Shown here: in pieces, positions 369 to 6,493 of the stretch | Layout of the letters: the number at the start of each line of letters is the position of its first letter | Position numbering within the stretch: position 1 is the stretch's first letter | Assembly: GCF_009914755.1 (NCBI RefSeq) | Contig: NC_060938.1 | Reading direction: 5' to 3' (one strand) | DNA length: 64,000 bases | Source of the DNA: the human T2T-CHM13v2.0 reference genome, Homo sapiens | Position numbers and translations under genes: made by a program | Notes under the pieces: generated by a model | What the model was told of the DNA's origin: nothing | Database searches by the model: none | The model's input: only the letters and a program-made list of their open reading frames with translations

Positions 369-433
369 TTACAGCCATCCCAGTGGGTGTGAAGTGGGAA
401 CTCACTGTGGTTTTGATTTGTATTTTCTTTTTT

Positions 434-964
434 AAGTGAAAGCAAGTTTATTAAGAAAGCAAAGGAATAAAGAATGGCTATTCCATAGGCAGAGCCCATT
501 GCCACTCAGCTGCTTATACTTATTGTTACTTCTTGATTGTATGCTAAACAAGGGGTGGATTATTCATGAGTTTTATGGGAAAGGGGTGGGCAGTATCTGG
601 AACTGAGGGTTTCTCCCCTTTGTAGACCATACAGGGCAACTTCCTGACGTTGCCATGGTATCTGGAAACTGTCATGGTGCTGGTGGAAGTGTCTTTTAGC
701 ATGCTGATGCATTATAATTAGAGTATAATGAATAGTAAGGACAACCAGAGGTCACTTTCATCGCCATCTTGGTTTTGGTCAGCTTCTTTACTGCAGCCTG
801 TTTCATCATTAAGGTCTTTATTACCTGTATCTTGTGCCGACCTCCTGTCTCATCCTGTGACTTAGAATGCCTAACCTCCTGGGAATGTAGCCCAGTGGGT
901 CTCAGCCTTATTTTACTCACCCCCTATTCAAGATGGAGTTTCTCTGGTTCAGACACCCCTGACA
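434..964 (-). mobile_element. MER41 3' LTR, U3-R only (no U5)
   Basis: Minus strand starts TGTCAGGGGTGTCTGAACCAGAG..CTCCATCTTGAATAGGGG after a polypurine tract (970-984) and ends 13 nt past AATAAA (tttatt 447-452). Confidence 0.9.
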
Positions 965-2399
965 TGTTTCCCCCCTCCCTTTTACAGCAGAACCCTTAAT
1001 CCTAACAGTCGTAGAGGGACAAAGATCCATCTTCTGTAACTTCTTCAGGCTGAATGGGGCGATGATATTCCTGCCTAACTATGAGGGTCTCTTGTATTCA
1101 GGGTAGAGAAGAGCTCAGTCAGAAAGCATCAATATGGTGAGGGCCATTCATAGCTCTGAGTTCCAACAAAAGGTGGTATCTGGAAGATTAATAAGTGTTC
1201 AGTTTAAGAAAACATTCAGTAAACTTATCCTGCATTCCTACACAAAGAGTACAACAGCAATATATTCCACAACAGTAAAGTAGAATAACTAAAATTATCC
1301 TGAGTAAACTAAACAAGAAGGCTTTCCATGAACTGGGCAGTTGTTGAAACCAAACTGATACATCGGGTTGCTAGCCGACTCCAGTATGTGCCCAGAATTA
1401 GAATATTGATCCAGATTTTTACATTACCCATCTCTCTTGTTTCTTGTGAGCAGCAGCCAGAGATCACTGATTGGTTCACAGGAGTAAGCAGGGTTAGCCT
1501 AAGTTGCAGAAAAAAAACTTAAAAACAACTGATGAGACTAGAATCTAGTAACAGGTGTACCAAGTTCCTGAAACATAATTTATTTTCTCTCTCCGGTCTC
1601 CCATTTTTACTGAAGACAAATCATGGTACAACTGATTTGCTTTATTATACTTGGCCTGATTATTTGTATAAAGTGCAGCAAGAACAGTTATTTTTCACAT
1701 AGGTTTTTAAAATTGGCTTTGATGAAACTTCATTCCATAAAAGGAAGCTTAGATAAGACTTTTTGTTAAAGCCAAGCCCAGCCATGGGTTTGTACCCTCA
1801 AATAACCTGTGAGTTGGGAAATTCCTCTCCTCTTGAGGTCCCAAGATGGCGTGGGGTTCCTGGGCCTGTCGGAAAGTGACATTCTTTACTAACCACAGGT
1901 CAGGAACCCTGCACAGGAACTGTGTAGACAAGGTATGAGGCCAGTTTTCCCAAGGAACTTTTATTGGCTCCATAAGTCAAGTTTGAGTCCTTAAAGGAAA
2001 GCACACCATTCCCATCAAAGTCCTGGTAAAACAACTAGTTTCTCTAATTGTGTCCTGTTGCAAAAGAAAACAGATTCTTATTGCACTTGTGCAAATAACT
2101 ATATTGCCATAAGTTAATACTCACAAATAGTTTCCAAATTCCAGAGAAAGCAGGTAGAGAAAAACAAATATGCTCCAAATTTTGTTCACAGGAGTATACT
2201 TTACTCAATTGTCAAAAGCTGTAAGTAGCTCAAAAGTTTTCTTGGCTCTGAAAAACAAAAATGATCAGCAACGTTTTAAGCAAAAAGTCAGAAAAGATTA
2301 CTTGAGTCTTTTGTTCAGTCCATGCAGTTAACTCCTGTTCTACTTGATATTCATAATCATTTCAGCTCTCCATGAGAGTCCTGAAAGAACCTCTGTTCT

Positions 2400-2699
2400 T
2401 CTTTTTTTTTTTTTTCTTGAGACAGTCTCACTCTGTCGCCCAGGCTGGCATGCAATGGCGTGATCTTGGCTCACTGCAACCTCTGCCTCCTAGGTTTAAG
2501 CGATTCTCCTGCCTCAGCCTCCTGAGTAGCTGGGCTTACAGGTACGCACCACCACGCCCAGCTAATTTTTGTATTTCTTAGTAGAGACGGGGTTTCACCA
2601 CATTGGTCATGCTGGTCTCGAACTCCCAACCTCAGGTGATCCACCCACCTCGGCCTCCCAAAGTGCTGGGATTACAGGCGTTAGCCACTGCACCCGGCC
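2400..2699 (-). mobile_element. AluS inserted in the ERV internal region
   Basis: Antisense Alu; TSD aagaacctct(g/a)ttct at 2385-2399 and 2701-2715. Confidence 0.92.
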
Positions 2700-5600: not shown

Positions 5601-5876
5601 CCTCCAACCCCCTAAATTTTAGGAAGGACTCTAACCTTCCTAAGTTGGGCATCAAACCCAAGTTCAGTCAAGCGTGCTTGCCTTTTATTAACAGGCACCT
5701 TTATCCCTCTCTTAGGAGAGACTCTAACTCTCCTAAGTTGGGCCTCTAACCCAATCCCATCCTTTACCCAGGTAACTGCATCCCACTTACCCAAGGTCGG
5801 CCAATCAGTGCTGCAGTCTATTTCCTTTGGGTTGGGAGTCTCCTCAGTATCATCCCTTTGGGGCTTGCCAGGAAGA

Positions 5877-6022
5877 TGTTACCGGAAAGGGGTCCCAATC
5901 CAGACCCCAAGAGAGGGTTATTGAATCTCATGCAAGAAAGAATTCAGGGTGAGTCTATAAAGTGAAAGCAAGTTTATTATAGAAGTAAATAAAAAAGTGG
6001 CTACTCAATAGGCAGAGCAGCC
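5877..6022 (-). mobile_element. MER41 5' LTR, R-U5 only (no U3)
   Basis: Minus strand GGCTGCTCTGCCTAT...AATAAACTTGCTTTCAC...GGGACCCCTTTCCGGTAACA, then PBS-like TGGCAAGCCCCAAAGGGA (5870-5853). Confidence 0.9.
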
Positions 6023-6493
6023 GATTTGTATTTTCTTAATGATATTGATATTGGACATCTTTTTATGCGCTTGTTGAATATTTCAGTATCTTCCTTGGAG
6101 AAACGTTTATACAGATCCTTTGCTCATTTTAAAATTGGGTTGTCTTTTTGTGGTTGAGTTATAAGAGTGCTTTATATATATCCTGGATGCTAAACCCTTA
6201 TTAGATATGTGATTTGCAAGTATTTCCTCCCATTCTGTTAATTGTCTTTTCACTTTATTGATAATCTCATTTGGTGCTCAAAAGTTTTTCATTTTGATGA
6301 ATGAAGTTCAGTTTATCTAGTTTTTTATTTTGTTGCTTATACTTTTGTTGTTGTATCTAAGAATCCATTGCCAAATTCAGGGTCATTAAAGATTTACCTC
6401 CTGTGTTTTCTTCTAAGAGCTTTCTAATATATTTTTTGGGGATCTCATTCATTTTTGAAAGATAGTTTTACTGGATATAGAATTCTTGGTTGA

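What the first reader, a model, noticed from the sequence alone, without database searches (positions are those of the whole stretch)
415..6037. MER41 endogenous retrovirus inserted as an L1-retroposed processed mRNA, not a provirus
Seen on the minus strand: the element begins in R (6022), has only R-U5 of the 5' LTR, then PBS, ~4.6 kb internal sequence, PPT, and U3-R of the 3' LTR. It stops 13 nt after AATAAA with a short A remnant (430-433). It is flanked by a perfect 15-bp duplication GATTTGTATTTTCTT (415-429 / 6023-6037), and the empty site reads TCTT/AA inside an old L1M. Established: retroviral integrase gives full LTRs and 4-6 bp TSDs, whereas mRNA-shaped ends, poly(A), long TSD and a TTTT/AA-type nick mark L1 target-primed reverse transcription. 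This route is well known for HERV-W processed pseudogenes but much less described for MER41. Inference: a MER41 genomic RNA was mobilised by L1, and this copy records the exact TSS and poly(A) site of MER41 LTRs, a family known as interferon-gamma/STAT1 enhancers.
Basis: partly seen in the sequence, partly recalled or inferred. Interest (0 to 1): 0.8.

Follow-up and report, generated by a model that had tools for sequence, protein, structure and literature searches.

The report
L1-made retrocopy of MER41 retrovirus RNA
This stretch in a TRAF3 intron is a DNA copy of a whole MER41 endogenous-retrovirus RNA that was pasted in by the LINE-1 machinery rather than by retroviral integration, and many other MER41 copies in the genome were made the same way.

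Summary
On the minus strand the element starts in R at 6022 with no U3. It runs through U5, a PBS-like site, 4.9 kb of internal sequence (including a later Alu), a polypurine tract and U3-R. It stops 13 nt after AATAAA, followed by AAAA and a perfect 15-bp duplication.

Eight paralogous copies of the host repeat carry that 15-mer stretch once, so it is target DNA. Complete LTRs of the family are 615-635 bp, run TGTCAG…GTAACA and have 4-bp duplications.

The copy is not unique:
- 9 of 39 other 5' ends sampled start at the same nucleotide with unrelated flanks.
- 9 of 29 other 3' ends stop at the same poly(A) site with A-rich tails.
- All 7 evaluable R-start copies also end in R plus an A-rich tail; 5 of them have 9-15-bp duplications.

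Processed and proviral copies are interspersed on a star-like tree. The MER41 label rests on a published MER41B motif (25 of 26 bases) and on recall; Dfam was not available.

Papers in the held library call HERV-W the sole L1-mobilised HERV group, and I found no account of this for MER41. This copy looks inert: no promoter at its 5' end, no detectable coding sequence and no GAS motif.

The parts
415..429 (.). Target-site duplication, the copy downstream of the element in element orientation: GATTTGTATTTTCTT
   Evidence: Two exact copies in the window against 0.01 expected. The stretch is present once in 8 paralogues of the host repeat.
430..433 (-). Poly(A) remnant: AAAA on the minus strand, running into the A-rich start of the duplication (AAGAAAA)
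   Evidence: Sequence read. Related copies carry longer A-rich tails at the same place.
434..497 (-). R of the 3' LTR, with AATAAA at 452-447. It ends 13 nt after the signal. No U5 follows.
   Evidence: Aligns with the 5' R. In other copies U5 follows here.
498..964 (-). U3 of the 3' LTR. It starts TGTCAGGGG at 964 and has TATAAG at 518-513. It holds the MER41B-like motif at 559-534 and no TTCNNNGAA.
   Evidence: 82-85% identity to 39 other scored LTR copies, out of 3660 first-look candidates. Motif match 25 of 26. No GAS motif.
965..983 (-). Polypurine tract AAAAGGGAGGGGGGAAACA directly upstream of the 3' LTR
   Evidence: Sequence read. The same tract precedes the LTR in locus L003.
965..5876 (-). 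Internal region, 4.9 kb, colinear with the internal regions of other copies. No recognisable gag, pol or env.
   Evidence: Colinear matches to other copies. Pfam finds 0 families in the three minus-strand frames read with X at stops. phmmer against PDB gives only Alu-derived peptide matches and one weak match at E 0.36.
2400..2700 (-). Later Alu insertion inside the element, flanked by its own duplication AAGAACCTCT[G/A]TTCT at 2385-2399 and 2701-2715
   Evidence: Other copies skip window 2388-2705. Sequence read. Inverted Alu matches.
5853..5870 (-). PBS-like sequence TGGCAAGCCCCAAAGGGA, 6 nt after the end of U5
   Evidence: Sequence read. The tRNA type was not determined. Vargiu 2016 supplement file 2 lists PBS type W for MER41.
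5877..5959 (-). U5 of the 5' LTR, ending …CCGGTAACA
   Evidence: Matches the U5 that follows R in complete LTRs elsewhere.
5960..6022 (-). R of the 5' LTR. Its first base at 6022 (GGCTGCTCTG…) is the inferred transcription start. AATAAA lies at 5978-5973. No U3 lies upstream.
   Evidence: Nine other copies start at the same nucleotide (within 1-2 nt) with unrelated flanks.
6023..6037 (.). Target-site duplication, the copy upstream of the element in element orientation
371..414 (+). Left part of the interrupted host repeat. An Alu poly(A) abuts it at about 345-369.
   Evidence: Aligns to paralogues of the repeat, continuous with the right flank.
6038..6395 (+). Right part of the interrupted host repeat, an old high-copy repeat. 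The name L1 comes from recall.
   Evidence: 5190 first-look candidates; the 39 other scored matches are 73-81% identical. Pfam finds none.

Best explanation
A full-length, polyadenylated transcript of a MER41-family endogenous retrovirus (R-U5-PBS-internal-PPT-U3-R-poly(A)) was copied into DNA by LINE-1 target-primed reverse transcription.

The inferred steps are these. The L1 endonuclease nicked the window's + strand at TCTT/AA inside an old interspersed repeat. The T-rich end primed on the RNA's poly(A) tail. The whole RNA was reverse-transcribed up to its cap site. Staggered second-strand cleavage 15 bp away produced the duplication.

The result is a promoterless, non-coding retrocopy lying antisense in a TRAF3 intron. 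The same route produced a sizeable share of the family's internal-bearing copies, at about the same time as its ordinary proviral spread.

Shown here: the anatomy, the duplication, the single-copy target, and the shared ends in other copies. Inferred: that L1 was the enzyme and the order of the steps, from the established signature of L1 retrotransposition.
For: At this locus:
- A perfect 15-bp duplication directly abuts both ends.
- The 5' end lacks U3 and the 3' end lacks U5, while R is present at both.
- The copy ends 13 nt after AATAAA, followed by AAAA.
- The target reads TT|AAGAAAA.
- Eight paralogues of the host repeat hold the 15-mer stretch once and are continuous across the site.

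Contrast within the family:
- 19 complete LTRs of 615-635 bp run TGTCAG…GTAACA; 9 have a perfect 4-bp duplication.
- Among the 29 other LTR loci, most show U5 contiguous with U3-R.

Recurrence:
- Of 39 other 5' ends, 9 start at the same nucleotide with unrelated upstream DNA, 26 have U3 and 4 are uninformative.
- Of 29 other 3' ends, 9 stop at R with an A-rich tail (one of them weak), 14 have U5 and 6 are uninformative.

Both ends go together:
- 7 of 7 evaluable R-start copies end at R plus an A-rich tail.
- 3 of 3 checked copies with U3 at the 5' end have U5 at the 3' end.
- No copy was discordant.

Duplications in other copies: 12/12, 12/13, 10/11, 8/9 and 9/9 (13/15 when extended). One 5'-truncated copy has a 16-nt duplication with one mismatch (15 of 16).

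Poly(A) sites vary by a few nucleotides between copies, as cleavage sites do.
Against: - The A tail here is only 4 nt and merges with the A-rich duplication, so on its own it is weak.
- No orthologous empty site from another primate could be examined.
- The L1 identity of the host repeat, and of the enzyme, rests on the signature and on recall, not on a test (Pfam found nothing in the flank).
- Two of the 8 copies seen at both ends (the window included) have no clear duplication: one is in an A-rich context and one is disrupted by an Alu.
- The two R copies are only about 82% alike, more diverged than the perfect duplication. With the terminal branch of 0.057, a perfect 15-mer has a chance of about 0.18, so this is not a contradiction.
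- The copies sampled were the best matches to this very element, so the fractions may overstate the family-wide share.
Confidence: 0.9

Rival explanations
1. An ordinary integrase-made provirus that later lost U3 of its 5' LTR and U5 of its 3' LTR through two independent deletions.
For: Old proviruses are often truncated. Several sampled copies have broken LTRs (for example L100, and L035, L038, L049 and L057).
Against: Both deletions would have to end exactly at the R boundaries and also create a perfect 15-bp direct repeat of host-repeat sequence abutting both ends. The same two breakpoints recur in other loci with unrelated flanks. The family's integrase insertions have 4-bp duplications.
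Confidence: 0.03
2. A cDNA of the viral RNA made by a reverse transcriptase other than L1 (for example the retrovirus's own, without strand transfers) and captured at a chromosomal break by DNA repair.
For: It would also give R-to-R, mRNA-shaped copies. L1 involvement is inferred, not observed.
Against: Repair capture does not predict duplications of 9-16 bp, A-rich duplication starts preceded by T (seen by reading the flanks, not counted by a script), or A tails at the junction. All of these are the established L1 signature. One 5'-truncated copy with a duplication also fits L1.
Confidence: 0.05
3. The 15-bp repeat is a chance or repeat-internal coincidence and the element's ends lie elsewhere.
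For: The 15-mer is T-rich and lies in a repetitive context.
Against: Only two matches occur in 64 kb, even allowing one mismatch, against 0.01 expected. Paralogues of the host repeat contain the stretch once. Family homology stops exactly at the repeat on both sides.
Confidence: 0.01

Closest known systems
HERV-W (HERV17/LTR17) processed pseudogenes made by LINE-1 (Pavlicek 2002 as described in Grandi 2016, PMC5016936, passages read)
   Same: The 5' LTR is reduced to R-U5 and the 3' LTR to U3-R. There is a poly(A) tail, a long target-site duplication and an L1-type target. A large share of the family's copies are of this kind. Both families are placed in the HERVW9 supergroup (Vargiu 2016 and Kojima 2018, passages read).
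   Different: It is a different family. The LTR is about 630 bp with R near its 3' end, against 780 bp for LTR17 with R at consensus positions 256-326. The internal region has no detectable coding sequence. The tail is short and decayed. It is not described in the papers I could search.
Processed pseudogenes (retrocopies) of cellular mRNAs
   Same: The copy is colinear with a mature polyadenylated RNA from cap site to poly(A) site. It has a 15-bp duplication, a TT/AAAA-type target and no promoter at the 5' end. 5'-truncated relatives exist.
   Different: The template is a retroviral genomic RNA, so the copy carries a complete promoter-bearing U3 at its 3' end.
Canonical MER41 proviruses and solo LTRs
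   Same: The LTR and internal sequences are the same, at 82-88% identity. The U3 carries the MER41B-like motif.
   Different: Those have complete TG…CA LTRs of 615-635 bp and 4-bp duplications. This copy has neither.

Membership tests
L1-mediated processed pseudogene (retrocopy) | Colinear with the mature transcript: starts at the transcription start and ends at the poly(A) site | tested here: met
   The copy starts in R and ends in R 13 nt after AATAAA. The same start is seen in 9 other copies. The same end is seen in 9 copies of the 3' set and in 5 further 3' ends.
L1-mediated processed pseudogene (retrocopy) | Poly(A) tail at the 3' junction | tested here: inconclusive
   Only AAAA remains here, followed by the A-rich duplication. 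Related copies have clear A-rich tails.
L1-mediated processed pseudogene (retrocopy) | Target-site duplication of roughly 7-20 bp made of target DNA | tested here: met
   15 of 15 bases match. The stretch occurs once in 8 paralogues of the host repeat.
L1-mediated processed pseudogene (retrocopy) | Insertion at an L1 endonuclease site (TTTT/AA type) | tested here: met
   TCTT/AA on the nicked strand, or TT|AAGAAAA in element orientation.
L1-mediated processed pseudogene (retrocopy) | Empty orthologous site in species that diverged before the insertion | not testable with these tools
   Only this genome is held. Paralogues of the host repeat served as a stand-in.
MER41 (ERV1) family | Alignment to the Dfam/Repbase MER41 LTR and MER41-int consensus | not testable with these tools
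   No repeat library is on hand. The subfamily (A-G) is therefore not assigned.
MER41 (ERV1) family | Carries sequence published as MER41B-derived | tested here: met
   MEME motif M2 of Schmid & Bucher 2010 (PMC2897888, Table 1, passage read) matches window 559-534 on the minus strand at 25 of 26 bases. It is the only match in the window, with 0 expected.
MER41 (ERV1) family | Tandem GAS (STAT1) sites of MER41B | tested here: not met
   No TTCNNNGAA in the 3' LTR. The only match in locus L001 falls at window 1324-1332, in the internal region. This bears on function and subfamily, not on family membership.
MER41 (ERV1) family | Env immunosuppressive-domain string given for MER41a | tested here: not met
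   The best local score for the 23-residue string from the Vargiu 2016 supplement was 30, within the shuffled range (mean 26.9, maximum 39). The env part is either gone or too decayed.
Integrase-made provirus | Two complete LTRs (TG…CA) flanked by a 4-bp duplication | tested here: not met
   There is no U3 at the 5' end and no U5 at the 3' end, and the duplication is 15 bp. The family norm is shown.

The most novel reading that the evidence does not exclude
MER41 is a second human ERV group that LINE-1 amplified on a large scale.

- About a quarter to two-fifths of the informative internal-bearing copies sampled are mRNA-shaped retrocopies: 9 of 35 informative 5' ends and 9 of 23 informative 3' ends.
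- They arose from several source lineages, at the same time as proviral spread.
- The sampled internal region has no detectable coding capacity. L1, and helper viruses for the proviral copies, may therefore have been this element's main means of increase.
- Together the retrocopies give a nucleotide-level map of the MER41 promoter's start site and poly(A) site.

This would overturn the statement that HERV-W is the sole HERV group mobilised by L1. It would also point to a property shared within the HERVW9 supergroup.
Probability: 0.55. Interest if true: 0.6.

Novelty: new member of a known kind. Interest (0 to 1): 0.55.

Why it matters
L1-made copies of retroviral RNA are textbook for HERV-W. 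[quoted passage not shown] Showing the same thing, repeatedly, for MER41 has four consequences:

1. It changes how the copy number of this family should be explained.
2. MER41 'proviruses' in catalogues that did not separate the two kinds (Vargiu 2016 says so) are a mixture.
3. It marks the promoterless copies, which matters for expression studies.
4. It fixes the transcription start and poly(A) site of an LTR family much studied as interferon-inducible enhancers.

For this locus the practical message is that the copy is most likely inert. It lies antisense in a TRAF3 intron, has no 5' promoter, no coding sequence and no GAS motif, and no RefSeq functional element is listed over it.

Tried and rejected
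- **Pfam on the internal region.** The three minus-strand frames of 965-5876, read with X at stops, gave no family at E up to 10.
- **phmmer against PDB.** The same frames gave only Alu-derived peptide matches and one weak match at E 0.36. I could not say which viral genes the RNA once carried.
- **MER41a Env immunosuppressive-domain string** from the Vargiu supplement: no match above shuffled controls.
- **Vargiu's hg19 table of 3173 HERVs.** I looked for this locus by estimated coordinates. The only rows found were on chromosome 13, so the locus is not listed.
- **Pfam on the flanking repeat**, to prove it is L1: nothing found.
- **Do processed copies form one lineage?** They do not. A 30-row tree needs 9 label changes against a shuffled mean of 8.5, and the tree is star-like with only 1 of 27 inner branches supported.
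- **Clustered 5' truncations.** Four 5'-truncated copies begin within about 100 bp of each other (window equivalents 1890-1993). I considered a spliced RNA. I dropped the idea because one of them has its duplication directly at the truncation point and no leader exon. Clear duplications were not found for L033, L040, L055 or L060.
- **Not available.** Pavlicek 2002 could not be opened.
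Full report
**1. The observation**

The 15-mer GATTTGTATTTTCTT occurs exactly twice in the window, at 415-429 and 6023-6037. Shuffled sequence gives 0.01 matches.

Between the two copies, read on the minus strand, lies a retrovirus-like element:
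- It begins at 6022 with GGCTGCTCTGCC…
- Its first ~63 nt align with the last ~63 nt of the LTR at the other end, so they are R.
- U5 runs to …CCGGTAACA at 5877.
- TGGCAAGCCCCAAAGGGA follows six bases later (5870-5853).
- At the other end a polypurine tract (983-965) precedes TGTCAGGGG (964).
- The LTR runs to AATAAA (452-447) and stops 13 nt later at 434.
- It is followed by AAAA and the second 15-mer.

The internal part is 4.9 kb. About 0.3 kb of it is an Alu with its own 15-bp duplication, which other copies lack.

**2. What a complete LTR of this family looks like**

The window's own genome can be searched. The U3-R piece (434-964) has 3660 first-look candidates. The 39 other scored copies are 82-85% identical.

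In most of the 29 other loci fetched, U3-R is contiguous with the U5 that this element carries only at its 5' end.

Nineteen complete LTRs measure 615-635 bp, start TGTCAG and end GTAACA. Nine of them have a perfect 4-bp duplication, and several more match at 3 of 4.

So the family's integrase-made insertions look as expected. The window copy lacks about 467 bp of U3 at one end and about 83 bp of U5 at the other.

**3. The duplication is target DNA**

The right flank (6038-6395) belongs to an old high-copy repeat, with 5190 candidates and best other matches at 73-81% identity.

In eight paralogues of this repeat the sequence runs without a break from the window's left flank into its right flank. 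The stretch corresponding to the 15-mer is present once.

The 15-mer is therefore host-repeat sequence that was duplicated on insertion. It is not part of the LTR.

In element orientation the site reads …CATT|AAGAAAATACAAATC|AAAACC…. This is TCTT/AA on the nicked strand, the L1 endonuclease type of site (established knowledge).

I recall the repeat as the 3' part of L1 ORF2. Pfam did not confirm that.

**4. The same ends recur**

*5' ends.* I searched with the leader (5400-5876) and fetched about 370 bp upstream of each of the 39 other scored matches.
- Nine start at the same nucleotide as the window copy (GGCTGCTCTG…, within one or two bases) with unrelated DNA upstream.
- 26 have U3 upstream.
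- Four are uninformative.

*3' ends.* I searched with the 3' internal part (965-1500) and examined 29 other loci.
- Nine end at or just past …CTTTCACTT followed by A-rich tails. One of them (L032) has a weak tail.
- 14 continue into U5.
- Six are uninformative.

*Both ends together.*
- For the nine R-start copies I located the 3' end of seven. All seven end in R plus an A-rich tail.
- The other two were broken or not found.
- Three copies with U3 at the 5' end all have U5 at the 3' end.
- No copy was discordant.

*Duplications abutting the ends of other copies.*
- GTTATTACTAGA (12/12).
- AATGGTATT[T/C]GCT (12/13).
- CAGCA[T/C]GTTAA (10/11).
- T[T/C]TATTGTA (8/9).
- TATCATGAC (9/9, or 13/15 when extended).
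- A 5'-truncated copy has GGAAGTCAT[A/C]CCTTCC.
- Two of the 8 copies seen at both ends (the window included) show no clear duplication.

The poly(A) addition point varies by a few nucleotides between copies, as cleavage sites do.

**5. Mechanism**

These are the defining marks of L1 target-primed reverse transcription of a polyadenylated RNA. The marks are shown; the enzyme is inferred.

The template was the full-length transcript of a source element. The copy runs from cap site to poly(A) site. Its internal length (4.6 kb without the Alu) is in the range of proviral copies of the family, whose internal regions span about 3.5-5.3 kb judged from the distances between matches.

**6. Timing and sources**

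A tree of the 3' internal 534 columns from 30 copies is star-like: 1 of 27 inner branches is well supported.
- Terminal branches have a median of 0.067; the window copy's is 0.057.
- Processed and proviral copies are interspersed: 9 label changes against a shuffled mean of 8.5.

Processed copies thus arose from more than one source while the family was spreading. The window copy is as old as the rest. At commonly used primate neutral rates that means tens of millions of years, which is an inference and not a measurement.

A perfect 15-bp duplication is not surprising at that age; its chance is about 0.18.

**7. What it is called, and what it encodes**

No repeat library was available. The name MER41 rests on three things:
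- One check: a 26-base motif that Schmid & Bucher 2010 report as derived from MER41B (PMC2897888, Table 1, passage read). It matches the U3 at 559-534 at 25 of 26 bases and is the only match in the window.
- The structure differs from HERV-W's LTR17, which is 780 bp with R at 256-326.

The subfamily is not assigned.

On coding content and motifs:
- The three sense frames of the internal region have no Pfam family.
- They have no retroviral match in PDB.
- A published MER41a Env string is not found.
- The 3' LTR has no TTCNNNGAA.
- This copy should therefore not be counted among interferon-responsive MER41 enhancers on sequence grounds.

**8. Comparison with what is in print**

I searched the held library six times:
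- MER41 with 'processed pseudogene'.
- HERV-W, processed pseudogenes and LINE-1.
- MER41 with L1-mediated, retrotransposed and target-site terms.
- Processed pseudogenes with U3-R and R-U5.
- MER41-int, MER41I and 'MER41 provirus'.
- A broader HERV query.

I read passages, not whole texts, of the papers that looked relevant.
- None describes processed pseudogenes of MER41.
[quoted passage not shown] - This locus is not in their table.

I could not read Pavlicek 2002, Costas 2002, or any Repbase/Dfam notes. An earlier mention may exist there.

**9. Limits**

- Each sample consists of the 40 best-scoring of 396 or 806 first-look candidates for a query taken from this element, so the fractions may be biased towards its relatives. 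The lack of clustering on the tree argues that the bias is modest.
- There are more first-look candidates for the 3' part than for the leader (806 against 396). This fits 5' truncation but has other possible causes.
- No other primate genome could be examined.

**10. Verdict**

The copy itself is an inert retrocopy. The wider result, that this is a common form of MER41, is the more [11 protein letters not shown] part and deserves a proper census.

Noticed in passing
window 2385-2715: An Alu on the minus strand sits inside the element, flanked by its own duplication AAGAACCTCT[G/A]TTCT (14 of 15). It is absent from other copies of the family, so it inserted later. It is a second L1-driven event nested in the first.
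   Followed up: partly
window 1-370: Alu sequence with long poly(A) runs (42-56 and 345-369) abuts the left flank of the host repeat. The repeat was thus hit at least twice, by this Alu and by the MER41 retrocopy.
   Followed up: no
loci L033, L040, L055, L058: Four 5'-truncated, polyadenylated copies begin within about 100 bp of each other (window equivalents 1993, 1890, 1955, 1943). This could be chance, a preferred stop for reverse transcription, or an internal start site.
   Followed up: partly
loci L032-L060: The 3' LTRs fall into two classes by identity to the window's U3-R: about 77-84% over the full length, or about 66-70%. Processed-type ends are commoner in the first class (6 of 8) than in the second (2-3 of 11). 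The internal-region tree does not separate the two classes.
   Followed up: partly
window 10103-10209: The hub's gene table lists a U6 snRNA pseudogene (RNU6-1316P) 4 kb away. Such copies are also usually L1-made. I did not examine it.
   Followed up: no
window 489-2389: Most of the element is not masked in NCBI's repeat file (per the hub's list), although it belongs to a family with thousands of copies.
   Followed up: no
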